From: a virus | Taxonomy: Duplodnaviria; Caudoviricetes | Direction: 5' to 3' (one strand) | Length of the DNA: 57,852 nucleotides | IMG/VR virus record: IMGVR_UViG_3300037470_000433 | Span: 1 to 57,852 of that record | Part shown: in pieces, positions 1,073-55,246 of the stretch | How the letters are laid out: every line of letters starts with the position of its first letter | Numbering within the stretch: the stretch's first letter is position 1 | The notes under the pieces: model-generated | What the model was told of the DNA's origin: nothing | The model's input: the letters and a program-made list of their open reading frames with translations, nothing else | Database searches by the model: none | Translations under genes and position numbers: made by a program

Positions 1073-1321
1073 CTATATCGGATTTCCGAGGTCGTCAACC
1101 GGAATTCCAAACTGGGCCGGGGTTTTGCCAAAGCGCTCCCAGCAGTATGTCCTCAAGAACGCGATCTCATACTCTGCCCTCTCGAACGCTGGATCAGGCA
1201 TCCAGAGGGATGATTCAGCGGTCGGCGGTCGCCAGTTCCTGGCGTACGTAGTTGCTGCCGGCAGGATGGCAAAGGACGCCGCTGCCAGCCCCAGCTTTGT
1301 GAAGAACGATCTCCTGGTCAT
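1073..1321 (-). CDS. Small protein with twin-arginine (Tat)-like signal peptide
   Basis: MTRRSFFTKLGLAAASFAILPAA fits S/T-R-R-x-F-L plus a hydrophobic stretch; start overlaps the scaffold stop. Confidence 0.55.
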   Translation of the reverse strand: MTRRSFFTKLGLAAASFAILPAATTYARNWRPPTAESSLWMPDPAFERAEYEIAFLRTYCWERFGKTPAQFGIPVDDLGNPI

Positions 1322-2673
1322 TTTGCAAGCTTGCGAAGGTTGGTGAACAGCGATTGACGGCTGTTCTGAGGCATGCCGCCAGATGCGCCCGGCTGCCGCC
1401 CGCCAAATTCAGGGACAGTGCCTTCGAACTCGGCCAGCTTCTTCGCCAGCGCCGCACTGTTGGCGCGCTCCTTTTCCAGCATGTAGCGCATGCGGCCAAA
1501 AGCGGCGGCGCGGTGACGCACGGCGGCGTGCTTGCGGACGACGGCGGCGCGCTGCTCGGCGGTCAGTTTGGGATCGAGCGGGTCCTGCGTGAACGCCTCA
1601 TCCACGAACTTGTAGCCCTTCTCCAGCCGCGAGTTGGCGTCAGTGTCGCCGTCAATCGGCTTGAAATACTGGCCGATCTTAGGGTCGGCGATGATGTCGT
1701 TGTTGGTCTTTTCCCATGCCTCGGCGGCGGCCTTGCGGGCCTCAGCCGTCTGCGCCTGGGTCTGCGCCTGGGTGGCCTTCGCATGCTCAACGCCATCCTT
1801 TTTGGCCTTCTCCAAGGCGGCGGCCTGGGTGTCATAGAGCTTCCGCAACTCGCGGCGATGATCCATGACATCGTTGGCTGAGCTGCCGTAGAGCTGCTCG
1901 GCGCGCTCGCGGGCCCGGTTGAGCGGCATGTTCACCAGCTCCAACAGGTCCTTGGGCGCCATCTGTCGCTCTGCACCGGTTTCTGGGTCGGCGATGACAA
2001 TCTCGCGCAGCTCCGCCATCGAGCGTGTCCACTGCTGCTCGTAGGGCTGCTGATACTTTTCCACGAACTCCTGCGACTTGGAGTAGTCGAGAAACTGGAT
2101 GTGCTGCTCCAGCTCCTTGTTCCGGGCCTCGATCTTGGACAGACGCTCTATCTCGGATTTCCGAGCTTCAGGGTCGCCGATCAGCTTGCGCAACTCGGAC
2201 ACCTCGGCCTCAGCCTTGGCGGCGCGGGCCTTGTGCTCGTCGGCGAGCTTCCAGGGGTTCACCTTGGTCTTGCGACCGTCCACTTTGGGAGCGGCGGCGG
2301 CAGCGGCCTTGTCATCCGGCGATGGGGCGCTCTCGGGATCAACGTCATCAGCGATGCCGCGCTCATCGGGCTCAGCAGGATCAGCCGGATCATCAGCACC
2401 AGGACGGTCGCCTTCAGGTTGCGCCGGTGCGGCTGGCTCGGCAGCGGGGACCTTACCATCATCTCCGCGCCCCTTGGCTCGCAGATTGGCAAACATCTTC
2501 TCGCGGGCGGTCGGCTCTTTGGGAGCGCCGGCTGCTGGCGCCATTGGCGGAGGAACAACCTTGATCTCCCCTGTGGATGGCGGAACTGCTGATCCAACAC
2601 TGGCCGGACGGGCGGTTGGCGCGGCGGGGGCGGCGGGGGATGCTGGTGCGGGGGCGGCTGCTGGTGAACTCAT
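1318..2673 (-). CDS. Putative capsid scaffolding protein
   Basis: Pro/Ala/Asp-rich disordered N-terminus, coiled-coil body, located between portal and capsid. Confidence 0.6.
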   Translation of the reverse strand: MSSPAAAPAPASPAAPAAPTARPASVGSAVPPSTGEIKVVPPPMAPAAGAPKEPTAREKMFANLRAKGRGDDGKVPAAEPAAPAQPEGDRPGADDPADPAEPDERGIADDVDPESAPSPDDKAAAAAAPKVDGRKTKVNPWKLADEHKARAAKAEAEVSELRKLIGDPEARKSEIERLSKIEARNKELEQHIQFLDYSKSQEFVEKYQQPYEQQWTRSMAELREIVIADPETGAERQMAPKDLLELVNMPLNRARERAEQLYGSSANDVMDHRRELRKLYDTQAAALEKAKKDGVEHAKATQAQTQAQTAEARKAAAEAWEKTNNDIIADPKIGQYFKPIDGDTDANSRLEKGYKFVDEAFTQDPLDPKLTAEQRAAVVRKHAAVRHRAAAFGRMRYMLEKERANSAALAKKLAEFEGTVPEFGGRQPGASGGMPQNSRQSLFTNLRKLAK

Positions 2674-2969
2674 GCTTTGTAATTGAGCTTGTTAAGGTCT
2701 GCTTTGCCTGATGCCGGAGTTGCCGGCTCAGCCAGGTTGATAAGGATGTCCAGGAACTCCTGGGCGCCTTTGATTTTCAAGAAGTAGGCAGCGGCGGCAT
2801 TGCCGTCAATTTCGACGGCGCTGGTCAGCCGGCGCTGATGATGAAGCAATGCAGCGTTGAAGGACCGGCGCAGCGCTGGATTTTGCATCAACTCGCGATG
2901 AGCTTTGCAGGCTGCTGCGCTCTCAAGGAATTCCTGCTTGGGAGTCGGGTTCGTGATCGGTGGGTTCAT
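2670..2969 (-). CDS. Hypothetical protein (head module)
   Basis: 99-aa ORF translationally coupled to the scaffold gene. Confidence 0.6.
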   Translation of the reverse strand: MNPPITNPTPKQEFLESAAACKAHRELMQNPALRRSFNAALLHHQRRLTSAVEIDGNAAAAYFLKIKGAQEFLDILINLAEPATPASGKADLNKLNYKA

Positions 2970-3021
2970 GTTCTACGCTTTATCTGCTAACAGTGTTAGC
3001 ACGTCGGCCAAATCGTGTCCA

Positions 3022-5394
3022 TCACTCTTTGGCTTTCGGCTTTTCCTTGGCCTGCTTGTCTTTGATCTTCGCCTCGGCGGTGGCCTTCTTCTGGGCGAGC
3101 AGAACGTCGCTGGCAGCCTTCACGTCGGCGAGATGCAGCTCCTGCTCCATCTGCTTACGCTCCATCTCCATCTTCGCCTCGAACTCCTGGCGCTTCTGGG
3201 TCTGCTGCATCTCGAACTGCACCTGCCGCTGTGCCGTGCGCTGAGCGTGCGACACCTTCGTGTTCTCAGCCTTGGCATTGGCGGTGATCATCATCGCCTG
3301 AATCTTGGCCTGCGCCTCGGGGTCTTGACCGCCTTGAGCGTTCTCCTGCTGCATCTTCTCCTGCGCCTGCTGGGCCAGCGCCTTGACCAGGTTCATCACC
3401 TTGCCGAGCTGATCGCCGTACTGCTTCACGCGCGCCCGCTCCTCCGGGTCTTGCGCGATCTGCTGGATGTGCTGATCAATGTGCTGCGCCATGTTCTGCA
3501 TGCCCATGATCTGCTCCATCGTTGCGGTGCGCGTCTGCATAGCTTTCTGCACGACCAGCGCCAGCGTGGCCATCAACGTGTCCACATACTCGATGTGGTT
3601 CATGCCGGACTTCATCGCCACCGGCAGGCCCTGCAACAGCGTGCCCGCTGCGAGCTGGGCGTCATGCACGGAATCCGTGATGCGGTTCGGCGACTTGGGC
3701 ACGAGCGAATCGGCACGCGCCGCGTCATCTGTAACCGCAAGGGTTACATCGTGGAGAATCTGGCGCTGCGATTCCGGATCGTAAAGATTACGCATCGTCA
3801 TCAACTGCTCGGAGATGGCCATCTCCAGGGTCTTGTTGCCCGCCCCCATCACGCGCTCCGGCTCTTGTTCCCAACAGTCGCGGTTGTAGAGGACTTTCTC
3901 TGGAACGCCCTGACGCAGGCAGTTCGCCTGGAAGCTGCGGCAATGAGGGTCGCGTGAGTTCTTGATGATGAAGCGCCGGAAAATCTCCCGGTATTCAGGC
4001 TTCTGGTAGAGGTATGCCTGTTGCAAGCCCGCGCTGACCAGGCTGGTGATGGCGTTGGTTTCAGCCATGACCTGGAACTTGGTTTTCTCGACCTGGTTCT
4101 GACCCTGCTGCGGCTGCGTTGTGTAAGACGAAGCGTTCTGTGCGATCAGGTTGGCATTCTCCATCAGCCCCATCTGGGCGAGCTGGCTGTTCACTTGATA
4201 GCGATCCTGGGCCTTGATGAAGTCCACACTGCCGTCAATGAAGCCCCGGTTCACCAGGTCCACTTTGAGGGCGCGCTGCGCTTGATCGGCGTCATTGATG
4301 CGGAAGTAAACCATGAGCTGCTCAAAGAGGGCCTCATTGAATTTGCAGCGCAGCCGATTCTGAAGATGGCAGACCGAGTAGAGAAGGAAGCCGAGAGAGC
4401 GAACCGAGTGATAGCGGAACGGCGCCACCGCTGACAGATCGGCGAACTGCCAGTTGATTATCTCCTCGCGGTGGCTGGCAAAGATGCGCTTGCCTGGGTT
4501 GTAGAGGAACTGGCCCCGGAAATCCACATACGGCTCACCGGTGCGGCGCGATGATGCGGCTGCGCCACCAGCAGCGGCGGGAGTGCTCCACGCGTCCAGA
4601 ATCATGCGGCGATTCCAGCCGGACTGTTTGGGATTGTCGTTCCAGAAGTAGAAGTCGTAGCAGTCAACCGTGGGGACCTGGTCACCCACATAGAATCCAC
4701 CATCCCCTTTGACCCGCTCCTGAATCTTCTCCGGCGACCAAACCTCGGGCCAGTTTGTGCCCATCAGCGTCATGGACTCGCGATCAATCCACTTGATCAG
4801 CGACTTCACCAGCTTCTGATTCCAGCCCGGATCAACGTGCTTGCCACTGGTCAGCTTGATCAGCTCGGGAGCAGTAAGTGATCGGTAAACCGCAAAAAAG
4901 GGCAGGTTGCTCATCGTGAGCAAGGTGTTCGCTGGCACCAGCGCATCCTCAACTCCCATGGAGTCCGGCATCCAGCGATGTGAATCTCTCCAGCCGGCGG
5001 GGGCGATCCCATGCAGGACGTTCTGCGCGAACTTGGACCGGAAGCATTCCATGTATGGGATGGAGCGCTTCATGATCTTGTTGATCTCCTTGGTCACAAT
5101 CTGGCCGTATTGCGCCCGCTTGTGAGGCGCGCCGGCGTCAGTGGTGCAGGTGAAGAAGTTGCCCGGCTTGAGGAATGCCTGGTAGAACTGGCTGCGCGCA
5201 TCGTGGCTGAGGCGCGTGCTCTCCAGGAAGTTGACGTTGACCTCAATGTTGTTCGCTTCGACCTCGGATTCGTCGTAGGGCGGCACGCCATTGAACAGTT
5301 GGTCAATCTGCGCGCGGTTCTGACTGCGGGGGTAATCAGCGAGGCGGAGCTGATAGCAAACTTGCTCGACCTGCTCTGGTTGTTCAAATGTCAT
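3022..5394 (-). CDS. Portal protein
   Basis: 790 aa, helical, long Gln/Ala/Lys-rich coiled-coil C-terminus like P22-type portals; upstream of scaffold and capsid. Confidence 0.7.
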   Translation of the reverse strand: MTFEQPEQVEQVCYQLRLADYPRSQNRAQIDQLFNGVPPYDESEVEANNIEVNVNFLESTRLSHDARSQFYQAFLKPGNFFTCTTDAGAPHKRAQYGQIVTKEINKIMKRSIPYMECFRSKFAQNVLHGIAPAGWRDSHRWMPDSMGVEDALVPANTLLTMSNLPFFAVYRSLTAPELIKLTSGKHVDPGWNQKLVKSLIKWIDRESMTLMGTNWPEVWSPEKIQERVKGDGGFYVGDQVPTVDCYDFYFWNDNPKQSGWNRRMILDAWSTPAAAGGAAASSRRTGEPYVDFRGQFLYNPGKRIFASHREEIINWQFADLSAVAPFRYHSVRSLGFLLYSVCHLQNRLRCKFNEALFEQLMVYFRINDADQAQRALKVDLVNRGFIDGSVDFIKAQDRYQVNSQLAQMGLMENANLIAQNASSYTTQPQQGQNQVEKTKFQVMAETNAITSLVSAGLQQAYLYQKPEYREIFRRFIIKNSRDPHCRSFQANCLRQGVPEKVLYNRDCWEQEPERVMGAGNKTLEMAISEQLMTMRNLYDPESQRQILHDVTLAVTDDAARADSLVPKSPNRITDSVHDAQLAAGTLLQGLPVAMKSGMNHIEYVDTLMATLALVVQKAMQTRTATMEQIMGMQNMAQHIDQHIQQIAQDPEERARVKQYGDQLGKVMNLVKALAQQAQEKMQQENAQGGQDPEAQAKIQAMMITANAKAENTKVSHAQRTAQRQVQFEMQQTQKRQEFEAKMEMERKQMEQELHLADVKAASDVLLAQKKATAEAKIKDKQAKEKPKAKE

Positions 5395-30686: not shown

Positions 30687-30687
30687 C

Positions 30688-31080
30688 ATGCCAGCCAAGA
30701 AGCCGACGGTTAAACTGGTCTGTGCTGTTTGCCTGCGCCAGTACGAGGTGATGCCCTATCGGGCAAGCATATCGAAATGCTGCTCAAAGTTATGCGCTCA
30801 AAAATACGCCGCCAGGTTCGCGGCTCATATTCAAGAGGCAAAGCGTGGCACAGGAACCAAGCACCGATACGTGAAAAGAGGGGGTCGCCACGAGCACCGA
30901 GTTGTCGCAGAGATGAAGCTGGGCCGACCGCTTGGAGCGGGAGAAGTGGTTCACCACATTGACGGGAACGGCCACAACAACAATCCCGACAATCTTCAAG
31001 TGATGACGCAATCCGAACACATGAGACTGCACCTGCCTGAGATGGCGGAAGCCAAGAGGTCCAAGGGGGAGCGCGTATGA
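30688..31080 (+). CDS. HNH endonuclease with N-terminal Zn ribbon
   Basis: CAVC…CCSKLC; 'HEHRVVAE…EVVHHIDGNGHNNNPDNL'. Confidence 0.9.
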   Translation: MPAKKPTVKLVCAVCLRQYEVMPYRASISKCCSKLCAQKYAARFAAHIQEAKRGTGTKHRYVKRGGRHEHRVVAEMKLGRPLGAGEVVHHIDGNGHNNNPDNLQVMTQSEHMRLHLPEMAEAKRSKGERV

Positions 31081-32732
31081 AGATAACCCCAAGACCATAT
31101 CAAATCGAAGCCCGGCGCTGCGTTCTCGACCAGTGGAAGGAGGTTACATCAACACTTGTCTGCAAGCCGGTTGGAACCGGGAAAACAATTCTGTTCGCCC
31201 TGATCATTGAGGCGATGCGGCCACAGCGAGCCATCGTCATCGCTGAGCGAACAGAGCTGATCTGGCAAGCCAGAGACAAAATTCAGCGCACCACTGGACT
31301 GGAGTGCGGGATCGAGATGGGTGAACTGAGCGTAAATAACGACTCGCTGTTTGGCGCCATGCCGGTGGTTATATCCACCATTCAAACACAGTGCAGCGCG
31401 ATGGGCGACCGAAGGCGCATGTCGAGGTTCAACCCAAAGGACTTTGGGGTAATGGTCATTGACGAGTGCCACCACTCCACAAGCAGGTCCTATCGCGACC
31501 TGATCAACTACTACAAAAGCAACAATCCAGACATCCGGATTGTCGGCGTAACTGCCACCCCAGATCGTGCCGACGAGGAGGCATTGGGGCAGGTGTTCGA
31601 GACGGTGGCTTTCGACTATGAAATCCTGGACGCGATTCACGACGGCTGGCTCGTCCCAGTGGAGCAACAGTTCGTCAGCGTTGGTGGGTTGGACTTCTCG
31701 CAAATGCGGACCACTGCTGGAGACTTAAACGGCGCTGACCTGGCTCAAATCATGGAGTCAGAGCGGAACATGCAGGGCGTTGCCTCCCCTTCGATTGAAA
31801 TTATTGGCGACAAGCGGGCGTTGGCCTTCACGGCGTCAGTAAAACAGGCCGAAACTCTGTCGAACATCTTTAACCGCCACAAGCCTGGGTGTTCAGAGTG
31901 GGTGTGCGGAGCAACCAATAAAGATGTTCGCAAGGAGATGCTTGCCAGGTTCCAGGGGGGCGAAATTCAAATCATGGTCAACTGCAACTGCCTAGCTGAG
32001 GGATTTGATGATCCAGGCGTGGAGGTGATTTTGCAGGCTCGACCAACGAAAAGTCGCAGCCTGTATGCCCAACAAATCGGGCGCGCAATGCGCCCGCTTC
32101 CTGGGATTGTTGACGGGCCCGAGACGCCAGACCTTCGCAAGTCCGCTATTGCTGGAAGCAAAAAGCCGTCATGCCTGATCGTGGACTTCGTCGGCAATAG
32201 TGGCCGCCACAAGTTGATGACCTCTGCTGACATCTTGGGCGGCAAGGTCAGCGACGAGGCGATTGAGCGAGCCATCATCAAGGCTAAGAAGGACGGCGGG
32301 GCGGTCCGCATGTCGGATGCGCTCGATCAGGCCGATGAGGAAATCCGCCAGGAGGCCGAGGAGCGACGCCGCGCCGAGGAAGCTCGCAAGGCGCGGCTGG
32401 TGGCGAAGGTCAACTACTCCGCCCGGTCCGTCAGTCCATTCGACATGCTCCAGATCGCGCCGGTAAAGACGCGAGGCTGGGACAATGGTCGGACCTTGTC
32501 AGAAAAACAGAAAGCCTACCTGCTTCGTCAGGGCGTCAACCCGGACACCATTCCATACGCCCAGGGGCGGCAGCTACTGACAGCAATGTTCAAACGGATG
32601 GACGCCAAGTTGGCCAGCCTAAAACAGTTAAAAGTTCTAGCTCGATATGGATACACAGACGCAACAATGCCGTATGACCAGGCATCTAAGATTTTGGATT
32701 CTCTGGCCAGAAACGGATGGAGGAAGCCATGA
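31077..32732 (+). CDS. Superfamily 2 DExD/H helicase
   Basis: RPYQ, GTGKT, IDECHH, TATP, EGFD, QQIGRAMR. Confidence 0.95.
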   Translation: MKITPRPYQIEARRCVLDQWKEVTSTLVCKPVGTGKTILFALIIEAMRPQRAIVIAERTELIWQARDKIQRTTGLECGIEMGELSVNNDSLFGAMPVVISTIQTQCSAMGDRRRMSRFNPKDFGVMVIDECHHSTSRSYRDLINYYKSNNPDIRIVGVTATPDRADEEALGQVFETVAFDYEILDAIHDGWLVPVEQQFVSVGGLDFSQMRTTAGDLNGADLAQIMESERNMQGVASPSIEIIGDKRALAFTASVKQAETLSNIFNRHKPGCSEWVCGATNKDVRKEMLARFQGGEIQIMVNCNCLAEGFDDPGVEVILQARPTKSRSLYAQQIGRAMRPLPGIVDGPETPDLRKSAIAGSKKPSCLIVDFVGNSGRHKLMTSADILGGKVSDEAIERAIIKAKKDGGAVRMSDALDQADEEIRQEAEERRRAEEARKARLVAKVNYSARSVSPFDMLQIAPVKTRGWDNGRTLSEKQKAYLLRQGVNPDTIPYAQGRQLLTAMFKRMDAKLASLKQLKVLARYGYTDATMPYDQASKILDSLARNGWRKP

Positions 32733-48553: not shown

Positions 48554-50350
48554 CTAACAGGTGATGCGATCATACAACTTCCTGCCCAGCTTGGTCGCGT
48601 GCAGGTAAATCCCACGTATGCGGCAAAAACCCTTAACAGTTAACCTAAGCTGGCATTGATAGAACTGGTCGGATGGCCGCCCGGTCGCTGTGGCGCAACT
48701 TGCTGGCGGTTTCGGCATGGTCATCGTGGAAAAATATGACTCCAAGCATGGAGTAAGCGGGTATCCCGCAGGGGCGCTAACGCTCTCGGACGAGTTCTTG
48801 GTCGAGCACTTGTCCCACATGTGGTACAAAATCCAGCACGCCTGGCCGTCGGGTCGAAACTCCAGGAAGAAGTTCACCTTGCCAAAGAGGCGGTCAATCC
48901 ATAGCTCTGCGCCCACCAGCTTCTTCAGGCTCAACTCATCGCCCCAGGTGAACGCCGGCGTCTCGACGATGAACGGGATGCGGCTATCGCCGTTGTCGAA
49001 TCGCTCATGATCTGTCAGCTCCCAAAGCGCGATCTCATTTGCTTCGTTGACAACAGTGGCGAATGCACGCTCGCGACCACCGTAATCTCCGGTGGCCATT
49101 TGCAGGATGCTGAGCCCTTCGTACATGCCCTCCCAGTTCGGCATCTTCTGCTGCGCGAACGAGCTGATCGGAACGAAGTCCAGCGGAATGAGCGCGCGAT
49201 GCACCACGCCTTGCGACCGCTGCTCTGGAAGCGCGGTTTGCAGCAGCCGGTTGTCAAAGTAGATGCCGCTGGAAAATCGAAGCAGCGCCCGGTCGTTGAA
49301 TTGCAGGATGCGCTGCTCGTTGGCGCTGATTGGAATGTTGCCCCACTGGCCGAAGAAGCGCGTGGACTGATTGAGTGAGCGGATGCCCGGCTCCAGCGAC
49401 TGGCCAAAAAGGTCGCCGTTGACCGTTGTCACCGAGCGGTCGTTGACCCAGCCGTTGTCGAGCTGCACCACCGTCATCAGCGGCTGGTTATTGTTGTCGG
49501 CAGCAATCCAGTCGTTGCGGGTGACTGGCACGTTGAGCGCGTAGATCGCCTTGCGCGTGCTGACGAACAGCCGGCCCTGCCCCAGCGCGGCGTCAATGTT
49601 GGCGCTGTGCTTGATGGCGCGAATGAGCGTGCCGTCACTGGAGGGGATGGTGAAGCCGTCACCATCCAGCACCATGGGATTCTCGGTGACGTTCAGGACG
49701 GAATCGGTATTTTCGTAGGCCACCGTTCCGGAAGGTCCGCGCACAATATCCCCCGCGTTGACCTGCCGGTCCTGCGCGTACCAAAGGCGGCCCATGAAAT
49801 AGTCCATCGCCGTGGCGGCGGGAATCTCATTGACCCCAGGAGTGCCGGGCGCGACCGCAGAATTGGTTATACCAAGGGATCGCCGAAGCGTGACACCATC
49901 CCAGATGAACGGCAGGGTGACCCCATCCCCCGCCTGAATCACGAGGAACTGCTCTGCCTGCACAAAGTAGGCATACGGAGCATCGGGCGGATTGAATTGT
50001 GGCGAGTTGGTGGGGAACAGGGCTGTCAGGTCAATCACAGCTCCGGTGGTGGGATAGACCGCGTAAATGTGTCCACCAATGGAGTGAACCTCGTAGGGGT
50101 CGGAGCTGGTCGGTGAGTAGGTGAATTTTCCCTGGAACAATGCTGAGCCGTCATGGATGATGCAAACCGGCTGCCATCCCCAGCGCGGCGTGATGCCGCC
50201 ATCGCGCACGGTTGCATTGTTGAGCCACGCGAGCTGGTTGCGCGGCAAGCCGCCGGGGTTGCGCTCGCTTTGCATCGTGGTGACAGCGATGGAATTCACC
50301 CCGCCAGAGAAGTCGAGCGAGCCATCAGTGATGATTACATCCGATTCCAT
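48554..50350 (-). CDS. Putative tail nozzle / DNA-stabilisation protein (P22 gp10 or tubular B-like)
   Basis: 598 aa, beta-rich; N-terminal 'DFSGGVN…N..VRDG..TPRWG'. Confidence 0.6.
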   Translation of the reverse strand: MESDVIITDGSLDFSGGVNSIAVTTMQSERNPGGLPRNQLAWLNNATVRDGGITPRWGWQPVCIIHDGSALFQGKFTYSPTSSDPYEVHSIGGHIYAVYPTTGAVIDLTALFPTNSPQFNPPDAPYAYFVQAEQFLVIQAGDGVTLPFIWDGVTLRRSLGITNSAVAPGTPGVNEIPAATAMDYFMGRLWYAQDRQVNAGDIVRGPSGTVAYENTDSVLNVTENPMVLDGDGFTIPSSDGTLIRAIKHSANIDAALGQGRLFVSTRKAIYALNVPVTRNDWIAADNNNQPLMTVVQLDNGWVNDRSVTTVNGDLFGQSLEPGIRSLNQSTRFFGQWGNIPISANEQRILQFNDRALLRFSSGIYFDNRLLQTALPEQRSQGVVHRALIPLDFVPISSFAQQKMPNWEGMYEGLSILQMATGDYGGRERAFATVVNEANEIALWELTDHERFDNGDSRIPFIVETPAFTWGDELSLKKLVGAELWIDRLFGKVNFFLEFRPDGQACWILYHMWDKCSTKNSSESVSAPAGYPLTPCLESYFSTMTMPKPPASCATATGRPSDQFYQCQLRLTVKGFCRIRGIYLHATKLGRKLYDRITC

Positions 50351-50394
50351 TGACCCGAAGCTGCTCCACCTGCATCTTCTTTACAAGCTAAACC

Positions 50395-53300
50395 ATGCCT
50401 GACGCATCCGCCCCAGCCGCTCCGTTCATCAAAAAAACCGTCCACAAGTCGTCGGGACGCTTCCTGCGCTACGGCATCTTCTGGCAGCCGCATGTTGACC
50501 CGCTGGCCATGGAACTGGACTGCATCCGCATGGGTGGAAAGTGGATCAAGCAGAACGGCGACGAAGCCGGACTTGGTTTGAAGTATCACTATCGCAAGTT
50601 TCAGGAGCTGGCGTGGCCGTTCAAAATCTGGGAGAAGGGGCCGTTCAAGAACCACTGGGCTGAGGAGTGCCTCGACGCGTACCTGAACTACACCTACATC
50701 GGCGCCATGGGCTGCGCCGGGTGCGTTCGCGGCGACACCAAGCTCCTGAACCCGCTGACGATGGAGGAGCCGACGGTTCGATCCCTGTGCGAGAACAATA
50801 CTCACCCCATCGTAATGACGGCGCTTGGCCCAATCCGGTCTGGGGTGCCGTTCGTAAAGGGGGTCGCCGAGATTTACGAAGTTTCCACCAGCTCAGGAAG
50901 GAAATTCAACGCGACTGCGGAGCACTTGGTTTTGTTGACCACAGGAGTTTTTTGCCACGTCGCTGATCTCCTATGCGGGAGTTCGATTCTAATATCCGAG
51001 CCAAGCCGCCTGGCGTCCACTTGGGAACATGACCCGACAACTCATGCCTTAGATGGTCTGCGTTTTTGGCAAACAACTCCAGATTCTCAATTCGATTGTC
51101 GGCCTTGTTCTTGTTCTTGTGATGAACCACTTCCCGTCGGGTCAGCGGCCTTCCAAGGAAGTTCGACATCACCAGTCGGTGCTCTGGAACGTAGGTCCTC
51201 GCCGGGCGGCGAGCATTCGGATGGCCTGGGCAATACACCAGGACGTAACCATCTTTATCAATCAGACGGCCACCTCGCCACTGGCTATTCCGCTCTGCTG
51301 GAAACGAAGCCGGGAAATTTCGATCAGCGTCGTGCCTTTTCAGGAATGGACGGACGTGACGCTCACCCGCTCCGACCGCACGACATATCTGTTTTATTGA
51401 ACAACCTTCAGCGCTCATCTTCAGAACCAATTCCCGGTTTCTTTCGCAGGCTGAATTCTCACGTTTCATATCCCAGACTATGGGTTGCGCGGGATGTGGT
51501 CACAAGCATAAAACCCGTCGGGGTTGAGAAATTTTACGACTTGCAGGTGCCGTACGCCCATCACTACTACGCTGAAGGGTTCATTCATCACAACAGCGGC
51601 AAGAGCGACAGCTTCGGCGGCAACGTGCTCACCGACTGGTACGCCCACTCATCTTGCACGACGGTCCTGGTATCCTCCACCGACCTGAAAAGCCTGGAGC
51701 TTCGCATCTGGGGTATGATCAAGAAGTATCACAAGGCGGTGAAGTCGGAGCATCCATGGATGCCTGGATACCTGATCGAGGGAAGGCAGATGCTCACGCT
51801 TGACCCAAGGGAGGAATGTGAGGACGGGCGCGACTTCAAGAACGGCATCATCGCGGTCGCCTGTAAGAAGGGGAATCAGTTCGTCGGGCTCGGGCCGCTG
51901 ATCGGAATTCACAACAAGCGGGTGCGTCTGCTGGCGGATGAGTGTTTTCCGGCTGGGACTCCGGTCAACACCACGATGGGGACAATGCCCATTGAGTGGA
52001 TTTGCCCAGGTGACACCGTAATGTCGGCGATTGGACCAAGAAGGGTTACGGCAACTTCAAGAAAGCTGGCGAGATCGCTGGTGCTGGTGTCAATGGCTGA
52101 TGGCAGGCAAATTCGCTGCACCCCTGAGCATCCATTTCTAACTCAGGTAGGCTGGGTGAAAGCTATTGACCTTAACCAGACGCATTACATACCCTGCGTC
52201 AATGAAACATTGCGAATTCTGCAAGAAACCAATGCCGGAAAAGAACAGGCGATTCTGCGGGCTATCCTGCAACGCGAAATGGATGCACAGCCAGCCGGAA
52301 ATCAGGAAGGCGAGAGACGCCAAGATTTCCAAGGCGTTCGTGGAGCTTCACAAGAAGAACCCACACTGGGCGGAGGAAGCCCGGGAGCGCATGACCACAA
52401 ATTCTCCAATGAAGGACCCTGCAAACCGAGCCAAGATGTCAGAAACCTTGAAGCGCATTGGGCACAAACCCTCCATCCGTGGAGGGAACGGCACTGGCCC
52501 AACTGCGGCGGAGAAGATTCTTTGCGAGCGATTCCCCGAAGCGAAGTGGAATTATGCGATCACAACAGGAATGAAGCGTGGCAGCGGATACCCGCAGAGC
52601 TACAAGGTGGACCTCGGGTTTCCGATCATCAGGCTTGGGGTCGAGGCGGACGGGGGTTCGCATTGTTCTTTGGCGAGGAAGATGCAGGACAACAAGAAAG
52701 TGGAATTCCTTCGGGGGCTTGGGTGGGCAGTGTGCAGGTTCTCGAATCAGGACATAATCAACCGGACGGACTGGGTGGTGGATATACTGAAGTCTTTAAT
52801 CTCAGTGTCGAAGGCCACCCAAGCTACTCCGTCAACGGATTGATAGTCCATAACTGCAACCTCATGCCTCGGGCCTTCCTGGATGCCGCCTCCAACCTCA
52901 GCAAGTGCGAGGACTTCAAGCTGGTCGGACTCGGAAACCCGAACGAGACAACCAACGCGCACGGCTTCCTTTGCGAGCCGTCTGCCGAGCTGGGCGGATG
53001 GGAAGGCGGCATTGACCAGACCCCCGGGACCAAGACCTGGAAAACCCGATTCCCGAACGGCATTTGCATCCAGCTTCCCGGCAGCGACTCGCCCAACATG
53101 AAGGCGCCAGAGGGTGAGCCTCCGCCGTTCCCATTCCTGATCACGCGCCAGCAGATGCACGACGATGCCCTGATCTGGGGCAAGGACGACTGGCACTTCA
53201 CGATGATGAACGAGGCCAAGATGCCTCGCGGTCAGGGCAGTCGGCGCGTCCTCACCCGGCAGGCGTGCGTGAAGTTCGGGGCATTCAAAGAGCCGAACTG

Positions 53301-54102
53301 GCGGGACTCGCGCCGAACGAAGATCGCTTTCCTGGACGCAGCCTATCGCGGCGTGGGCGGCGACCGCTGCGTGTTTGGGGAGTTGCAGTTTGGCATGGAG
53401 GCCGAGGCGATCAACGCAGAGAAGCTGCTCACCACGATGATCAGCCAAAAGACCAACGACAACGACGGGCGCACGATCATCGCCCTGATTGACCTGGTAA
53501 CCATCCCGATCAGTTCCGCCCAGGGCGCCGACTCGCCGGAGGACCAGATCGTCAAGTTCGTCATGGAGTCCTGCAACGCCCGGGACATCATTCCAGAGAA
53601 TTTCTACTTCGACGCCGGCATGCGCACGTCACTGGTGACTGCATTCTCGCGCCTTTGGTCGCCACAGGTGCAGTCAGTTGATTGCGGCGCGCGGCCCAGC
53701 GAGGATGCGGTCAGTTCGGAAATCCGAACTAGCTGTCGCGACTACTACTCAAAGTTCGTCACCGAGCTGTGGTTCTCGGTGCGTATGGCGGTGGAATCAG
53801 GCCAGTTTCGCGGCATGACCGAGGAGGCCGCCACCGAGTTCTCCCAGCGCGAGTGGAAGATGGTTTCTGGCAACCGCATTGAGATCGAGTCCAAGGAGGA
53901 CATGAAGCTCAAAACTGGCCGATCTCCGGACTTGGCGGATGCCGTGGCGGTCGGCCTTTACGGGGCGCGCAAGAAGGGTTTCGTCATCAGCAAGCTTGCC
54001 AGGCCGCTGCCGTCCGGAAAGCGCGGCAGCGACTGGCGCGACGAACTCAGAAAAAAGGCCCAGCAGCTTGCGGCGGCTGGGCGGTTGAATTTCAAGGCTT
54101 AG
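50395..54102 (+). CDS. terL: Terminase large subunit precursor with two inteins (about 640 aa after splicing)
   Basis: Spliced Walker A GCAG|SGKS, Walker B LLADE|C, LGNP motif, nuclease 'FLDAAYRGVGGD' and 'GRSPDLADA'. Confidence 0.9.
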   Translation: MPDASAPAAPFIKKTVHKSSGRFLRYGIFWQPHVDPLAMELDCIRMGGKWIKQNGDEAGLGLKYHYRKFQELAWPFKIWEKGPFKNHWAEECLDAYLNYTYIGAMGCAGCVRGDTKLLNPLTMEEPTVRSLCENNTHPIVMTALGPIRSGVPFVKGVAEIYEVSTSSGRKFNATAEHLVLLTTGVFCHVADLLCGSSILISEPSRLASTWEHDPTTHALDGLRFWQTTPDSQFDCRPCSCSCDEPLPVGSAAFQGSSTSPVGALERRSSPGGEHSDGLGNTPGRNHLYQSDGHLATGYSALLETKPGNFDQRRAFSGMDGRDAHPLRPHDISVLLNNLQRSSSEPIPGFFRRLNSHVSYPRLWVARDVVTSIKPVGVEKFYDLQVPYAHHYYAEGFIHHNSGKSDSFGGNVLTDWYAHSSCTTVLVSSTDLKSLELRIWGMIKKYHKAVKSEHPWMPGYLIEGRQMLTLDPREECEDGRDFKNGIIAVACKKGNQFVGLGPLIGIHNKRVRLLADECFPAGTPVNTTMGTMPIEWICPGDTVMSAIGPRRVTATSRKLARSLVLVSMADGRQIRCTPEHPFLTQVGWVKAIDLNQTHYIPCVNETLRILQETNAGKEQAILRAILQREMDAQPAGNQEGERRQDFQGVRGASQEEPTLGGGSPGAHDHKFSNEGPCKPSQDVRNLEAHWAQTLHPWRERHWPNCGGEDSLRAIPRSEVELCDHNRNEAWQRIPAELQGGPRVSDHQAWGRGGRGFALFFGEEDAGQQESGIPSGAWVGSVQVLESGHNQPDGLGGGYTEVFNLSVEGHPSYSVNGLIVHNCNLMPRAFLDAASNLSKCEDFKLVGLGNPNETTNAHGFLCEPSAELGGWEGGIDQTPGTKTWKTRFPNGICIQLPGSDSPNMKAPEGEPPPFPFLITRQQMHDDALIWGKDDWHFTMMNEAKMPRGQGSRRVLTRQACVKFGAFKEPNWRDSRRTKIAFLDAAYRGVGGDRCVFGELQFGMEAEAINAEKLLTTMISQKTNDNDGRTIIALIDLVTIPISSAQGADSPEDQIVKFVMESCNARDIIPENFYFDAGMRTSLVTAFSRLWSPQVQSVDCGARPSEDAVSSEIRTSCRDYYSKFVTELWFSVRMAVESGQFRGMTEEAATEFSQREWKMVSGNRIEIESKEDMKLKTGRSPDLADAVAVGLYGARKKGFVISKLARPLPSGKRGSDWRDELRKKAQQLAAAGRLNFKA
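50722..51594 (+). mobile_element. Intein 1 (291 aa) in the terminase Walker A motif
   Basis: Starts CVRGDT; block B 'ATAEHLVL'; ends 'FYDLQVPYAHHYYAEGFIHHN' followed by Ser. Confidence 0.92.
50906..51469 (-). CDS. HTH-HNH endonuclease nested antisense within intein 1
   Basis: 'WRGGR…DGYV…HPNA…YVPEHRLVM…LGRPL…EVVHHKNKNKADNRIENL'. Confidence 0.85.
   Translation of the reverse strand: MKRENSACERNRELVLKMSAEGCSIKQICRAVGAGERHVRPFLKRHDADRNFPASFPAERNSQWRGGRLIDKDGYVLVYCPGHPNARRPARTYVPEHRLVMSNFLGRPLTRREVVHHKNKNKADNRIENLELFAKNADHLRHELSGHVPKWTPGGLARILESNSRIGDQRRGKKLLWSTKPSAPQSR
51943..52854 (+). mobile_element. Intein 2 (304 aa) after the terminase Walker B Glu
   Basis: Starts CFPAGT; block B 'CTPEHPFLT..GW'; ends 'VFNLSVEGHPSYSVNGLIVHN' followed by Cys. 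Confidence 0.92.
52202..52843 (+). CDS. Vsr/DUF559-like endonuclease nested in the +1 frame within intein 2
   Basis: MKHCEFC…FCGLSC Zn motif; 'PTAAE…YKVDLG…VEADGGSH…QD..K..FLRGLGWAVCRFSN'. Confidence 0.82.
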   Translation: MKHCEFCKKPMPEKNRRFCGLSCNAKWMHSQPEIRKARDAKISKAFVELHKKNPHWAEEARERMTTNSPMKDPANRAKMSETLKRIGHKPSIRGGNGTGPTAAEKILCERFPEAKWNYAITTGMKRGSGYPQSYKVDLGFPIIRLGVEADGGSHCSLARKMQDNKKVEFLRGLGWAVCRFSNQDIINRTDWVVDILKSLISVSKATQATPSTD

Positions 54103-54542
54103 ATCAGCCCGCTGCCGATCTTCTTGACGGCAGTGTTCAGATCACCCTCGGCGCCAACCTTGACGGCGTGCGTCTGAATGGCGTCTTTGACCTTCTGGTC
54201 ATCCAGGTTGTCAATCGCCTGCACGACAGTCTTGAGCAGCAGCTCGTTCGCGGCAGCCTTGTCGTTCTTGCGCTTGGCGAACCATCCGAAGCCCGCAGCA
54301 ACCGCTCCCAGTCCAATCTCCACGAACGGCGAATAAGGATTCATCGACGCAGTAGCTGCATTGACCGCTCCTGCTGTGGCCAGCCCGGTCGTCACCCGAG
54401 GGTCAACGACGTAGTTGGTGGAACTGGATCCGTCCGGATTGACTGTCACCTTCGGGGTCGTGCATCCGGTATAGAGGACTGCGCAGCTCAGGGTGAACCC
54501 AACACAGAATCCAATTACAGCGAGTTTGATCTTGGTTTTCAT
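54099..54542 (-). CDS. Membrane lipoprotein (possible lysis accessory)
   Basis: Basic N-terminus, hydrophobic stretch, 'YTGC', and a second transmembrane segment. Confidence 0.5.
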   Translation of the reverse strand: MKTKIKLAVIGFCVGFTLSCAVLYTGCTTPKVTVNPDGSSSTNYVVDPRVTTGLATAGAVNAATASMNPYSPFVEIGLGAVAAGFGWFAKRKNDKAAANELLLKTVVQAIDNLDDQKVKDAIQTHAVKVGAEGDLNTAVKKIGSGLI

Positions 54543-54558
54543 ATGGCGAAGTCTGCTC

Positions 54559-54960
54559 TTACAACCCCGCCGCGTCAATCGCCTGGCAGGCCCGGTGCAC
54601 CGAGATGGCCCGCAGAATCTGACTGGCGAACGCCAGGGCCTCCTGGTCGTCGCGCCCCTTCACCATCACGCCGCTGGCATTGTTGGCAATCTGTCGGCGC
54701 GTCCATGCCTCATCGTCGTAGCCGGTCAGGATGATGATGGCCACACCCGTAACGGCGTGCTTCAGCCGGGTCAGCGCAACCTCACGATTGGCATCAATTA
54801 ACCCAGGATCGAGAATGATGCCGTCATAATTCACCCGGTGCGCCATGACAATACCTTCGGCCATCGTTGATACGCCATCAATCAGGAGGTGGCCCGCGAG
54901 CTTTTCGCGCACTACCTGGCGGCAATCTGGATCGTCCTCGATATGCAGCACCTTAGCCAT
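54559..54960 (-). CDS. Single-domain response regulator (receiver, CheY-like)
   Basis: 'KVLHIEDD', 'DGIILDPGL' (phospho-Asp), 'IIILTG', 'MVKG'. Confidence 0.85.
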   Translation of the reverse strand: MAKVLHIEDDPDCRQVVREKLAGHLLIDGVSTMAEGIVMAHRVNYDGIILDPGLIDANREVALTRLKHAVTGVAIIILTGYDDEAWTRRQIANNASGVMVKGRDDQEALAFASQILRAISVHRACQAIDAAGL

Positions 54961-55246
54961 GCTTGCGGCGTTGTTTGTCACTGAAAAAATCGTCTATTTT
55001 TTGCAGAATCTTGATCATCTGTGCCTCAGCCTCGGGCGACAATTTGCCCTGAGCCTGGCGCAGCACGTCCTGCGCTACTCTAAGCTCCTCGACGAGCTTC
55101 AACAGCTTGTTGTACTCGTGGCGCGTGACAAAGAACTTCAGGAAGCCAATCACAGCCATGACTATTGCCACAGTGATTCCGCCCACTGTCATCAATAGCC
55201 GGAATCCCCGGCCTAGCTCCTCCGGCGTAATGTCTCCCATTAGCAT
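54953..55246 (-). CDS. Single-transmembrane protein with coiled coil (holin-like)
   Basis: One hydrophobic helix and a charged C-terminus; downstream of the fibre genes. Confidence 0.45.
   Translation of the reverse strand: MLMGDITPEELGRGFRLLMTVGGITVAIVMAVIGFLKFFVTRHEYNKLLKLVEELRVAQDVLRQAQGKLSPEAEAQMIKILQKIDDFFSDKQRRKHG

What the first reader, a model, noticed from the sequence alone, without database searches (positions are those of the whole stretch)
50722..51594. Intein whose middle is overprinted by an antisense HNH endonuclease gene
Seen: intein 1 splits the Walker A motif (GCAG|SGKS) and has intact splicing blocks. Its central ~190 codons show no nuclease motif in the intein frame, while the opposite strand encodes a complete HTH-HNH protein (50906..51469). 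Established: intein homing endonucleases are normally in-frame domains. Inference: the endonuclease is a separate antisense gene and the intein frame is kept stop-free across it as a disposable linker. This would be a two-frame homing element that needs its own antisense transcript.
Basis: partly seen in the sequence, partly recalled or inferred. Interest (0 to 1): 0.9.

Follow-up and report, generated by a model that had tools for sequence, protein, structure and literature searches.

The report
Terminase intein carrying antisense HNH gene
A self-splicing protein insert (intein) in this phage's DNA-packaging gene carries its mobility nuclease as a separate gene on the opposite DNA strand. The layout is real and widespread, but the same kind of arrangement is already described for other nuclease types.

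Summary

**The intein.** Intein 1 (50722..51594, 291 aa) splits the Walker A loop of a divergent large terminase. All 17 related terL loci that reach the site lack it and read GCAG|SGKS.

**Fold.** Its two ends fold as a complete Hint splicing domain. Residues 97-248 are predicted disordered.

**The antisense gene.** That middle is the reverse complement of a 187-aa HTH-HNH_3 gene (50906..51469, minus strand).

**Census.** Among 184 loci with relatives of this HNH:
- 80 carry it antisense between Hint lobes in one uninterrupted ORF.
- None has both lobes in separate ORFs.
- All 71 unique copies share one phase.
- Free-standing relatives have 5.1 stops per 100 codons in that frame. The nested copies have none.

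**Selection.** It acts on the HNH frame in the middle and on the intein frame in both lobes.

**Range.** Cultured Pectobacterium phages carry the element with the HNH gene unannotated. The family also sits in P-loops of helicases and AAA ATPases.

**Not shown.** Splicing, HNH expression and cleavage are inferred.

**Novelty.** Antisense LAGLIDADG and Vsr-like nucleases in inteins are in print. My four searches found no antisense HNH version. This scan found the same element before on other DNA, in at least six notes.

The parts
50395..54102 (+). Precursor ORF of the probable large terminase (1235 aa; 641 aa once both inteins are removed)
   Evidence: ORF; extein lengths. Walker A reads GCAG|SGKS and Walker B reads LLADE. 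Intein-less homologues are 628-642 aa. The terminase identity is weak: no Pfam or PHROG hit, a PDB profile hit to Sf6 gp2 at E 0.08, and ESM Atlas nearest clusters named terminase at 0.99.
50722..51594 (+). Intein 1, 291 aa, inserted in the Walker A loop
   Evidence: Boundaries. The site is empty in 17 of 17 related loci that reach it. Pfam Intein_splicing E 2.1e-16. C1, H68, H290 and N291 are invariant in 13 of 13 members.
50722..51009 (+). Intein N-lobe (residues 1-96; holds blocks A and B, named from recall)
   Evidence: AF2 mean pLDDT of the nine 10-residue blocks covering residues 1-90 is 91-98. Foldseek matches mini-intein splicing domains at E 4e-7, TM 0.83-0.88 normalised to the target. 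The intein frame is the conserved frame here: 0.31 against 0.12.
51010..51465 (+). Intein-frame linker (residues 97-248): translated complement of the HNH gene, kept stop-free
   Evidence: pLDDT below 50 throughout. GC3 of the terL frame falls from 0.81 in the exteins to 0.47 over the antisense-ORF span 50906..51469, with single 150-base windows as low as 0.36. Zero stops against 2.46 expected. Intein-frame identity is only 0.195.
51466..51594 (+). Intein C-lobe (residues 249-291, ends HHN)
   Evidence: pLDDT 83-98. The intein frame is conserved at 0.43 against 0.20.
50906..51469 (-). Antisense HTH-HNH endonuclease gene, 187 aa including stop
   Evidence: ORF. Pfam HNH_3 E 9.9e-10. PHROG HNH families down to E 3.6e-26. 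AF2 mean pLDDT 81. 24 invariant columns in 13 members.
51335..51451 (-). N-terminal helix-turn-helix part of the HNH protein (residues 7-45)
   Evidence: Helices 7-10, 12-20, 25-32 and 36-45 with pLDDT 82-95. Pfam HTH_29 E 1.1e-5, below its cut-off.
51035..51268 (-). HNH catalytic core (residues 68-145)
   Evidence: Strand 114-117, strand 130-133 and helix 136-144, with pLDDT mostly 90-96 (one 10-residue block at 75). H97, H117, N125, N129, N136 and H139 are invariant. The best PDB fold match is I-HmuI 1u3e, probability 0.97 but E 0.21.
50906..51009 (.). Zone where the HNH ORF tail (residues about 154-187) overlaps the folded intein N-lobe (residues 62-96)
   Evidence: Coordinates. Here the intein frame is conserved at 0.297 and the HNH frame is not, at 0.147.
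51943..52854 (+). Intein 2 (304 aa) after Walker B, with a 225-aa DUF559/Vsr-like ORF (52166..52843) in the +1 frame: the same phenomenon in the same gene
   Evidence: Boundaries. The site is empty in 17 of 17 relatives. DUF559 E 1.7e-8. Zero stops in the terL frame against 7.47 expected, 0 of 5000 shuffles.

Best explanation
Intein 1 is a contiguous class-1-type Hint intein in the Walker A loop of the phage's probable large terminase. Its homing endonuclease is not an in-frame domain. It is a separate HTH-HNH gene on the opposite strand, occupying the slot between the two splicing lobes.

Shown: the element has three segments.
- N-lobe: the sense frame is under selection.
- Middle: the antisense HNH frame is under selection, and the sense frame is only kept free of stops.
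- C-lobe: the sense frame is under selection.

Inferred:
- terL mRNA is translated straight through the middle as a disordered linker of about 150 aa.
- The two lobes fold together and splice the terminase.
- The HNH protein is made from a minus-strand RNA.
- It nicks or cuts intein-free P-loop alleles, so that repair copies the whole unit in.

The unit has one origin, because all copies share one phase. It has spread through phages of many hosts and between P-loops of unrelated ATPases.
For: Boundaries and empty sites.

Hint fold from the two ends only: residues 1-96 are high-confidence (10-residue block means 91-98 over residues 1-90) and the blocks from residue 251 read 83-98; residues 97-248 are below 50. 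Foldseek matches mini-inteins at E 4e-7.

The HNH gene is real: Pfam HNH_3 is above its cut-off, PHROG HNH families reach E 3.6e-26, AF2 gives mean pLDDT 81, and 24 columns are invariant across 13 members.

Frame-specific selection:
- Middle: HNH frame 0.418 against intein frame 0.195, 78 of 78 pairs.
- Lobes: intein frame 0.31, 0.30 and 0.43 against 0.12, 0.15 and 0.20.
- terL-frame GC3 is 0.81 in the exteins and 0.47 in the middle.

Stop avoidance:
- 13 of 13 members are stop-free, while synonymous shuffles expect 2.5-12.2 stops. P(0) is 0.034 for the window, 0.028 for L034 and 0.001 or less for the other 11.
- Census of 184 loci: 80 have both lobes antisense in one ORF, 0 have both lobes in separate ORFs, and 71 of 71 unique copies share the phase.
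- 97 unique free-standing relatives carry 5.11 stops per 100 codons in the equivalent frame, and only 4 have none. 76 unique nested copies carry none.

Independent translation signals: AGGAG-type Shine-Dalgarno sequences lie 5-8 bases before the HNH ATG in L029, L033, L036, L038 and L040.

Viability: plaque-isolated Pectobacterium phages (Ymer and 7 further records) carry the same layout in the gene next to the portal gene.

Mobility: 17 of 17 close terL relatives lack the element. The family also sits in Terminase_3 and Terminase_6N proteins, and in an AAA_34/Helicase_C_4 (Strawberry-notch-type) helicase, two proteins with a Helicase_C domain, an AAA ATPase and an AAA_25 protein.

Not an assembly artefact: independent runs hold identical pieces that cross both junctions.
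Against: - Nothing here shows splicing, an antisense RNA, HNH protein or cleavage.
- No sigma-70-like promoter was found on either strand of 50300..53000. Only a weak GGGA precedes the window's HNH ATG. This phage rarely uses Shine-Dalgarno sequences, 8 of 44 crude gene starts, so that absence is uninformative.
- The laid contigs showed no intein-free allele in the same samples (contigs only).
- The terminase identity of this host protein rests on weak evidence.
- The HNH fold match to I-HmuI is weak (E 0.21).
- The lobe HMMs and the 'nested' class were built from family members, so zero stops in nested copies is partly by construction. The informative figures are 0 split cases and the free-standing control.
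- The identity comparison used an alignment guided by the HNH protein, which favours that frame.
- One family member (L049, identical to L136) has Gly at +1 after HHN. That does not fit standard splicing.
Confidence: 0.8

Rival explanations
1. The HNH gene is a parasite of the intein rather than its partner. A free-standing HNH gene invaded a mini-intein and homes into HNH-less copies of that intein, or no longer homes at all. On this reading the intein itself gains no mobility from it.
For: Close free-standing relatives of the HNH exist: 97 of 184 loci, and L153 scores 185 with no Hint lobes. The published model for such inteins is secondary invasion by a free-standing endonuclease gene (10.1101/2025.01.02.630785, section 15 read). 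This genome carries other free-standing HNH genes.
Against: All 71 unique copies share one phase, and the lobes always accompany the HNH gene across unrelated host genes. So the two parts travel as one unit. I did not search for HNH-less mini-intein relatives, so this rival is not excluded as the mode of homing.
Confidence: 0.1
2. The HNH protein serves the phage rather than the intein, as a terminase-associated HNH nuclease needed for DNA packaging. Its position inside terL reflects that function.
For: HNH endonuclease genes next to terminase genes are common, and some are needed for packaging (abstracts of PMC3592412 and PMC12967558 seen in the listing).
Against: 17 of 17 close terL relatives lack the intein, and with it the HNH gene nested inside it. 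The same unit sits in helicases and AAA ATPases. The protein has an N-terminal HTH, and its best fold match is a homing endonuclease.
Confidence: 0.05
3. The terminase is made from two pieces by a split intein (a fractured gene), or the insert is removed at the RNA level as an intron. On either reading the open frame across the HNH gene is not used.
For: Fractured genes with a free-standing endonuclease gene between split-intein halves are known (PMC2677866, abstract seen in the listing).
Against: The frame is open in 80 of 80 loci that have both lobes, and free-standing relatives show what neutrality looks like. No Rfam intron family matches at E up to 1. The Hint lobes are conserved in the terL frame.
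Confidence: 0.03
4. The open intein frame over the antisense ORF is chance in a GC-rich genome, and the antisense ORF is spurious or decaying.
For: For the window alone the synonymous-shuffle probability is only 0.034. The genome has about 58% GC and many spurious long ORFs.
Against: Members with 37-45% GC are also stop-free, with 5-12 stops expected. The HNH frame is conserved in 78 of 78 pairs. Pfam, PHROG and AF2 support the protein.
Confidence: 0.02

Closest known systems
Non-canonical inteins with an antisense homing-endonuclease ORF: Synechocystis DnaX and Chloroflexus SpoVR-like inteins (Gorbalenya 1998 and Gogarten 2002, as cited in 10.1101/2025.01.02.630785), and actinobacteriophage inteins with antisense LAGLIDADG or antisense Vsr-like genes (same preprint, sections 8 and 15 read)
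   Same: A contiguous intein holds the endonuclease as a separate ORF on the opposite strand between the splicing lobes. The host frame is kept open. Terminase large subunit is among the hosts. The proposed origin is invasion of an intein by a free-standing endonuclease gene.
   Different: The nuclease here is an HTH-HNH_3 protein. That preprint reports HNH only as an in-frame domain (all 5 mentions of HNH read). This family is found far outside actinophages and also outside terminases.
Cyanobacterial dnaX intein with an out-of-frame LAGLIDADG endonuclease (bioRxiv 10.64898/2026.09.14.751524; abstract and section 17 read)
   Same: Selection is frame-specific: low dN/dS in the endonuclease frame and relaxed constraint in the overlapping intein frame. 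Secondary invasion of a mini-intein is proposed.
   Different: Different nuclease family, host gene and organisms. The preprint's text calls the endonuclease frame '+2ORF'.
Mycobacteriophage TerL P-loop inteins TerL1-a and TerL1-b (Kelley et al. 2016, PMC5050341; passages read)
   Same: Inteins inserted in the Walker A P-loop of phage large terminases, one residue apart. This family likewise uses G|[STC]GK and GK|T positions.
   Different: The passages I read mention no antisense or out-of-frame nuclease. The words 'antisense' and 'opposite' have 0 occurrences in that paper.
ShiLan domain: an out-of-frame HNH insertion in a phage DNA methylase (PMC11855218; abstract and passages read)
   Same: A hidden HNH gene in another frame of an insertion that is stop-free in the host frame.
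   Different: That element has no splicing lobes, and its HNH gene is on the same strand. Here a complete Hint domain flanks an antisense HNH gene.
Fractured genes with split inteins and a free-standing endonuclease gene between the halves (Dassa et al. 2009, PMC2677866; abstract seen)
   Same: A free-standing-type endonuclease gene sits between the two intein halves.
   Different: There the host gene is broken into two ORFs. Here it is one ORF in 80 of 80 loci that have both lobes.
I-HmuI, the HNH homing endonuclease of phage SPO1 (PDB 1u3e)
   Same: It is the best structural match of the predicted HNH protein (probability 0.97). Both are HNH proteins with a helix-turn-helix DNA-binding part; the domain make-up of I-HmuI is recalled.
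   Different: The match is weak (E 0.21, TM 0.33). The domain order is reversed (recalled). I-HmuI is intron-encoded, not intein-associated.

Membership tests
Intein (Hint-fold protein-splicing element, class 1 type) | Nucleophilic Cys or Ser at intein position 1 | tested here: met
   C1 is invariant in 13 of 13 aligned members. Most of the wider set also begin with Cys; a few do not, where the model-derived boundary may be off.
Intein (Hint-fold protein-splicing element, class 1 type) | Block B TxxH histidine | tested here: met
   The window reads T-A-E-H, with H68 invariant in 13 of 13. The block name is recalled.
Intein (Hint-fold protein-splicing element, class 1 type) | C-terminal His-Asn followed by Ser, Thr or Cys at +1 | tested here: met
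   The window reads HHN|S. H290 and N291 are invariant in 13 of 13. Most of the 71 unique junctions listed end HN followed by S, T or C. Exceptions there are one KN and two AN endings. L049/L136, examined separately, has Gly at +1.
Intein (Hint-fold protein-splicing element, class 1 type) | Hint fold | tested here: met
   The AF2 lobes score pLDDT above 90. Foldseek matches the Mtu RecA, Mxe GyrA and Npu DnaB intein splicing domains at E 4e-7 to 1e-6; TM normalised to the target is 0.83 (RecA), 0.68 (GyrA) and 0.82 (DnaB), and up to 0.88 for further RecA entries.
Intein (Hint-fold protein-splicing element, class 1 type) | In-frame insertion with a precise empty site in homologues | tested here: met
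   17 of 17 related loci that cover the site are contiguous. Their sequences read GCAG|SGKS or GCAA|SGKS.
Intein (Hint-fold protein-splicing element, class 1 type) | Protein-splicing activity | not testable with these tools
   Inferred only: cultured phages carry the element in the gene next to the portal gene.
HNH (beta-beta-alpha-metal) homing endonuclease, Pfam HNH_3 | Match to the family profile above the curated cut-off | tested here: met
   HNH_3 scores 38.3 bits against a 24.8 cut-off. Twelve PHROG families named HNH endonuclease match.
HNH (beta-beta-alpha-metal) homing endonuclease, Pfam HNH_3 | Conserved His and Asn residues on a strand-strand-helix unit | tested here: met
   H117, N125, N129, N136 and H139 are invariant in 13 of 13. 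The model has strand 114-117, strand 130-133 and helix 136-144. Which residue does what is recalled, not tested.
HNH (beta-beta-alpha-metal) homing endonuclease, Pfam HNH_3 | Fold match to a solved HNH homing endonuclease | tested here: inconclusive
   The top hit is I-HmuI 1u3e at probability 0.97, but E 0.21 and TM 0.33.
HNH (beta-beta-alpha-metal) homing endonuclease, Pfam HNH_3 | Site-specific cleavage of the intein-free allele | not testable with these tools
Non-canonical inteins with an antisense or out-of-frame endonuclease gene | A complete endonuclease ORF in another frame or strand between the splicing lobes of a contiguous intein | tested here: met
   80 of 184 loci with HNH relatives have this layout, and none is split.
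Non-canonical inteins with an antisense or out-of-frame endonuclease gene | Purifying selection on the endonuclease frame, with the host frame only kept open | tested here: met
Non-canonical inteins with an antisense or out-of-frame endonuclease gene | Sporadic distribution pointing to horizontal movement | tested here: met
   Absent from 17 of 17 close terL relatives. Present in unrelated ATPase genes. No tree test was run.
Fractured gene with split intein | Host gene broken into two ORFs around the endonuclease gene | tested here: not met
   The window has a single 1235-aa ORF. 0 of 80 loci with both lobes are split.
Group I or II intron carrying a homing-endonuclease gene | Match to an intron RNA family | tested here: not met
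   No Rfam match at E up to 1 in 50300..53000.
Phage large terminase (TerL) | Match to a terminase profile or structure | tested here: inconclusive
   No Pfam or PHROG match to the exteins or to intein-less homologues. A PDB profile hit to Sf6 gp2 has E 0.08 over 50 residues. The ESM Atlas nearest named clusters are terminase at 0.99. Walker A and Walker B motifs are present.

The most novel reading that the evidence does not exclude
The HNH gene and the Hint lobes form one ancient composite mobile element of single origin. It has kept the same antisense phase through at least 71 distinct copies. It targets Walker A coding DNA as such, which lets it jump between unrelated ATPase genes: several terminase families, helicases and AAA ATPases. 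On this reading the antisense layout is adaptive rather than accidental. It uncouples nuclease expression from late terL expression, and the minus-strand RNA may also damp terL translation.
Probability: 0.25. Interest if true: 0.65.

Novelty: new variant of a known kind. Interest (0 to 1): 0.5.

Why it matters
- **Scope of the layout.** It extends the known set of inteins whose homing nuclease is a separate overlapping gene to the HNH family. Such units can be large, old and widespread rather than rare accidents.
- **Natural experiment in overlapping genes.** About 150 codons are translated in one direction with no constraint except 'no stops', because the opposite strand carries the selected gene.
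- **Annotation.** Gene callers keep the long terL ORF and drop the HNH gene. In GenBank phage Ymer the terminase is named 'hypothetical protein' and the HNH ORF is absent. A scan for Hint lobes flanking an antisense HNH_3 match would correct many records.
- **Intein origins.** It supports the view that inteins acquire nucleases by invasion of free-standing genes.
- **Extein switching.** It offers cultured phages (Pectobacterium phage Ymer and relatives) in which P-loop-directed extein switching could be tested.

Tried and rejected
- **RNA evidence.** No RNA holder was listed among the 20 runs that hold the stretch, so expression could not be examined.
- **Intein-free alleles in the same samples.** I laid contigs of X9, X10, X14 and X15. 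They gave only short low-depth pieces, identical to the window except for one differing letter in one piece. There were no joints, so no co-existing intein-free allele was seen. Contigs cannot show absence.
- **Promoter and terminator scans**. No sigma-70-like site lies near the HNH gene. The terminator-like hits number 5, against 2.6-3.4 expected, which is not meaningful.
- **Shine-Dalgarno before the window's HNH ATG.** Only a weak GGGA is there. This phage rarely uses such sites, 8 of 44 crude starts, so I drew no conclusion.
- **Co-conversion hint.** The window uses AGC for Ser +1, while 12 of 12 intein-less relatives use TCN. Across the family Ser +1 codons are mixed, 17 AGY against 30 TCN. 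I do not count this as evidence.
- **Dual selection in the overlap.** I looked for it in the 35-codon overlap of the HNH tail with the N-lobe and did not find it. HNH-frame identity there is 0.147, close to the 0.124 background.
- **Close relatives of the DUF559 ORF.** None were found in IMG/VR with a single-protein query. I did not follow this with a profile.
- **Terminase identity.** Pfam and PHROG gave nothing for the exteins.
- **Supplementary files.** Those of the papers were not opened. Supplemental Table 1 of 10.1101/2025.01.02.630785 may list inteins relevant to the claim that an antisense HNH is not in print.
Full report
**What is there.** The window is a complete 57,852-base virus record with direct terminal repeats. 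A 1235-aa ORF runs 50395..54102 on the plus strand. A 187-aa ORF lies antisense inside it at 50906..51469.

The long ORF contains two inteins.
- Intein 1 is 50722..51594, 291 aa. It starts CVRGDT and ends HHN, sitting between GCAG and SGKS.
- Intein 2 is 51943..52854, 304 aa. It sits between LLADE and CNLM.

Eighteen related loci were fetched with the C-terminal extein. Seventeen cover both sites and read straight through them. The eighteenth, L021, does not reach them. The 12 relatives whose ORFs I printed are 628-642 aa and read GCAG|SGKS or GCAA|SGKS. The finding's coordinates are therefore exact.

**Both frames, by profile.**
- The precursor matches Pfam Intein_splicing at E 2.1e-16, 60.5 bits against a 35.8 cut-off. 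No nuclease family matches the intein frame.
- The antisense ORF matches HNH_3 at E 9.9e-10, 38.3 bits against 24.8.
- It also matches HTH_29 at E 1.1e-5, below that family's cut-off.
- Twelve PHROG families named HNH endonuclease match it, the best at E 3.6e-26.

**Composition.** GC at the third codon position of the terL frame is 0.81 in the exteins. It falls to 0.47 over the antisense-ORF span 50906..51469, with single windows as low as 0.36. The terL frame is therefore not the selected coding frame there.

**Structure.**
- AlphaFold2 was run on the intein-frame polypeptide with a 13-sequence alignment. The 10-residue block means are 91-98 over residues 1-90 and 83-98 from residue 251, and residues 97-248 are below 50.
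- Foldseek matches the model to mini-intein splicing domains (Mtu RecA, Mxe GyrA, Npu DnaB). E values are 4e-7 to 1e-6; TM normalised to the target is 0.83, 0.68 and 0.82 for those three, and up to 0.88 for further RecA entries. The alignment bridges the disordered middle.
- The antisense protein folds with mean pLDDT 81. It has four short helices at 7-45, a strand-strand-helix unit at 114-144 and a C-terminal helix at 153-170.
- Its best PDB match is the HNH homing endonuclease I-HmuI. The match is weak: probability 0.97, E 0.21.

**A family, not a one-off.** Searching IMG/VR with the HNH protein and then with a two-sequence alignment gave 24 loci.
- Seventeen of them have an antisense open frame of 717-1064 codons (stop to stop) running across the HNH gene.
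- Every one is interrupted at a Walker A loop by C...HN followed by [ST]GK[ST].
- GC content ranges from 0.34 to 0.70.
- After removing near-duplicates, 13 unique members including the window were analysed.
- All share one phase: HNH codon position 1 pairs with intein position 1, position 2 with 3, and position 3 with 2.

**Stop avoidance.** The intein frame has no stop across the antisense open stretch in 13 of 13 members. Synonymous shuffles of the HNH codons expect 2.5-12.2 stops. P(0) is 0.034 for the window, 0.028 for L034 and 0.001 or less for the other 11. Codon-order shuffles give P(0)=0.0012 for the window.

**Which frame is selected.**
- Across 160 ungapped HNH codon columns and 78 pairs, amino-acid identity is 0.418 in the HNH frame. 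It is 0.195 in the intein frame over the same bases. The HNH frame is higher in 78 of 78 pairs.
- Base differences per HNH codon position are 0.47, 0.40 and 0.65. That alignment was guided by the HNH protein, which favours that frame.
- With an alignment guided by the intein frame the pattern reverses in the lobes. Intein-frame identity is 0.31 in the N-lobe before the overlap and 0.43 in the C-lobe. The HNH-frame figures are 0.12 and 0.20.
- In the 35-codon zone where the HNH tail overlaps the N-lobe, the intein frame is at 0.30 and the HNH frame at 0.15.

So the element is partitioned. I see no sign of selection on both frames in the overlap. Some earlier notes of this scan reported dual selection on other windows. 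My measurement on this family does not reproduce that.

**Wider census.** One scan each of genome contigs and metagenome contigs with the 13-member HNH profile gave 160 more loci. I built HMMs of the N-lobe, C-lobe and HNH protein and searched six-frame translations of all 184 loci.

| Class | Loci |
|---|---|
| Both lobes antisense to the HNH gene, in one ORF | 80 |
| Both lobes antisense, in separate ORFs | 0 |
| One lobe, other side off the contig | 4 |
| One lobe only | 3 |
| No lobes (free-standing HNH) | 97 |

- The three 'one lobe only' loci (L049 and its duplicate L136, and L174) are contiguous on inspection.
- The HNH-family score has a median of 208 in nested loci and 108 in free-standing ones.
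- All 71 unique nested copies share the phase. Four of them run off a contig at the N-terminus.
- As a natural control, 97 unique free-standing relatives carry 5.11 stops per 100 codons in the equivalent antisense frame, and only 4 have none. The 76 unique nested copies have none over a mean of 162 codons.
- The zero in nested copies is partly by construction. The informative results are the absence of split cases and the control.

**Hosts and range.**
- Record titles place nested copies in assemblies labelled Opitutae, Planctomycetota, Acidobacteria, Clostridia, Cyanobacteria and Nanoarchaeota. They also occur in an isolate genome, Polaromonas sp. CG9_12.
- Host genes include Terminase_3 and Terminase_6N proteins.
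- They also include an AAA_34/Helicase_C_4 helicase of the Strawberry-notch type, two proteins with a Helicase_C domain, an AAA ATPase and an AAA_25 protein.
- Insertion points are mostly G|[STC]GK[ST]. Seven copies are at GK|T, and a few are in other glycine-rich loops.

**Cultured phages.** tblastn against GenBank phages puts Pectobacterium phages Ymer, Abuela, Sabo, Taid, Pappous, Koroua and Amona, and Dickeya phage Setonix, at the top with 39-41% identity. In Ymer a 754-aa CDS next to the portal gene is annotated 'hypothetical protein'. It reads GFG|CVHPHT...HHN|TGKS and holds a 232-aa HNH ORF on the opposite strand that the record does not annotate. If that gene is the terminase of a plaque-forming phage, its product must be functional. 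This is indirect support for splicing through the linker.

**Expression.** Nothing here shows it.
- AGGAG-type Shine-Dalgarno sequences precede the HNH ATG in L029, L033, L036, L038 and L040. That fits independent translation from a minus-strand RNA.
- The window has only GGGA there. This phage rarely uses such sites, 8 of 44 crude starts.
- No promoter-like site was found.
- In this genome terL is a lone plus-strand gene between minus-strand genes (48554..50350, and 54099..54578 whose stop overlaps the terL stop). Read-through from the right-hand minus-strand genes could supply the antisense RNA. In Ymer all neighbours run with terL, so that cannot be the general route.

**Other checks.**
- No Rfam family matches 50300..53000 at E up to 1, so an intron reading has no support.
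- Independent sediment and soil runs hold low-depth pieces that match the window almost letter for letter (one differing letter in one piece), and some cross both intein-1 junctions. They show no intein-free allele (contigs only).
- The terminase identity of the window's host protein is only weakly supported. There is no Pfam or PHROG hit. A PDB profile hit to Sf6 gp2 has E 0.08. The ESM Atlas nearest named clusters are terminase at 0.99.

**Intein 2.** The same gene holds a second case. A 225-aa DUF559 ORF (E 1.7e-8) lies in the +1 frame of intein 2. The terL frame has 0 stops across it against 7.47 expected, 0 of 5000 shuffles. GC3 follows the DUF559 frame.

**Comparison with what is known.**
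[quoted passage not shown] It cites Gorbalenya 1998 and Gogarten 2002 for earlier antisense LAGLIDADG cases. It lists HNH only as an in-frame domain.
- bioRxiv 10.64898/2026.09.14.751524 (abstract and section 17 read) shows frame-specific selection in the dnaX intein.
- PMC11855218 (abstract and passages read) describes an out-of-frame HNH insertion without splicing lobes.
- PMC5050341 (passages read) describes TerL P-loop inteins and never uses 'antisense' or 'opposite'.
- Four full-text searches found no report of an antisense HNH gene inside an intein. Supplementary files were not seen.

The kind is therefore known. The HNH version, its size and its range across P-loop ATPases appear to be new in print.

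**Earlier findings of this scan.** The scan has met the same element before on other DNA. At least six earlier notes describe a terminase P-loop intein with an antisense HNH gene, and two describe +1-frame nucleases in terminase inteins. I read these after forming my view. They agree on the main point.

**Verdict.** The architecture and the selection pattern are shown. Splicing, antisense expression and homing are inferred.

Noticed in passing
window 51943-52854 (ORF 52166-52843, + strand): Intein 2, placed after Walker B, carries a complete 225-aa DUF559/Vsr-like ORF in the +1 frame. The terL frame has 0 stops across it against 7.47 expected (0 of 5000 shuffles). No close relative turned up in IMG/VR with a single-protein query.
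   Followed up: partly
window 48554-55246: terL is a lone plus-strand gene between minus-strand genes (48554..50350, 54099..54578, 54559..54981, 54953..55246). The stop of 54099..54578 overlaps the terL stop by 4 bases. Minus-strand read-through could therefore run antisense through terL and reach the HNH gene.
   Followed up: no
window 30667-31080 (+) and 32717-33283 (+): Further free-standing nuclease-type genes flank a helicase-like gene (31077..32732). One is a 137-aa HNH protein, 43% identical to the intein's HNH core. The other is a 188-aa ORF that looks like an endonuclease-VII-type protein; that resemblance is recalled and untested.
   Followed up: no
L013 6072-7028, L015 4495-5451, L018 4516-4752: Three related terL loci lack both of the window's inteins. 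They carry an intein at a third site (residue 359 of the C-terminal extein), and its N-lobe is 35-37% identical to the N-lobe of intein 2.
   Followed up: no
L033 617-3805 (- strand): This terminase has the antisense-HNH intein in its P-loop and also a second insert with a LAGLIDADG_3 match (E 1.4e-5).
   Followed up: no
L049 and L136 (identical), around 2860-3700: A family member in an ATPase of an assembly labelled Mycobacterium sp. has Gly, not Ser, Thr or Cys, after the HHN end (HHN|GGKS). That does not fit the standard splicing chemistry.
   Followed up: no
L066 2-6250 (- strand), L054, L060, L053, L206: The same antisense-HNH intein sits in P-loops of proteins that are not terminases. 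L066 (Polaromonas sp. CG9_12) is an AAA_34/Helicase_C_4 (Strawberry-notch-type) helicase. L054 and L060 carry a Helicase_C domain. L053 is an AAA ATPase and L206 an AAA_25 protein.
   Followed up: partly
L046 (GenBank OP748252.2) 1080-3344: In cultured Pectobacterium phage Ymer the intein-bearing gene next to the portal gene is annotated 'hypothetical protein'. The 232-aa antisense HNH ORF (locus 2453..3151) is not annotated.
   Followed up: partly
window 51595-51606 compared with L004-L014: Ser +1 and the second Ser of SGKS use AGC in the window. All 12 intein-less relatives use TCN at +1. This could be a co-conversion or immunity trace, but codon use at +1 is mixed across the family.
   Followed up: partly
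L153 2962-3360: This is a close free-standing relative of the HNH (family score 185) with no Hint lobes. It has stops in the equivalent antisense frame, which shows what the frame looks like without the intein constraint.
   Followed up: partly
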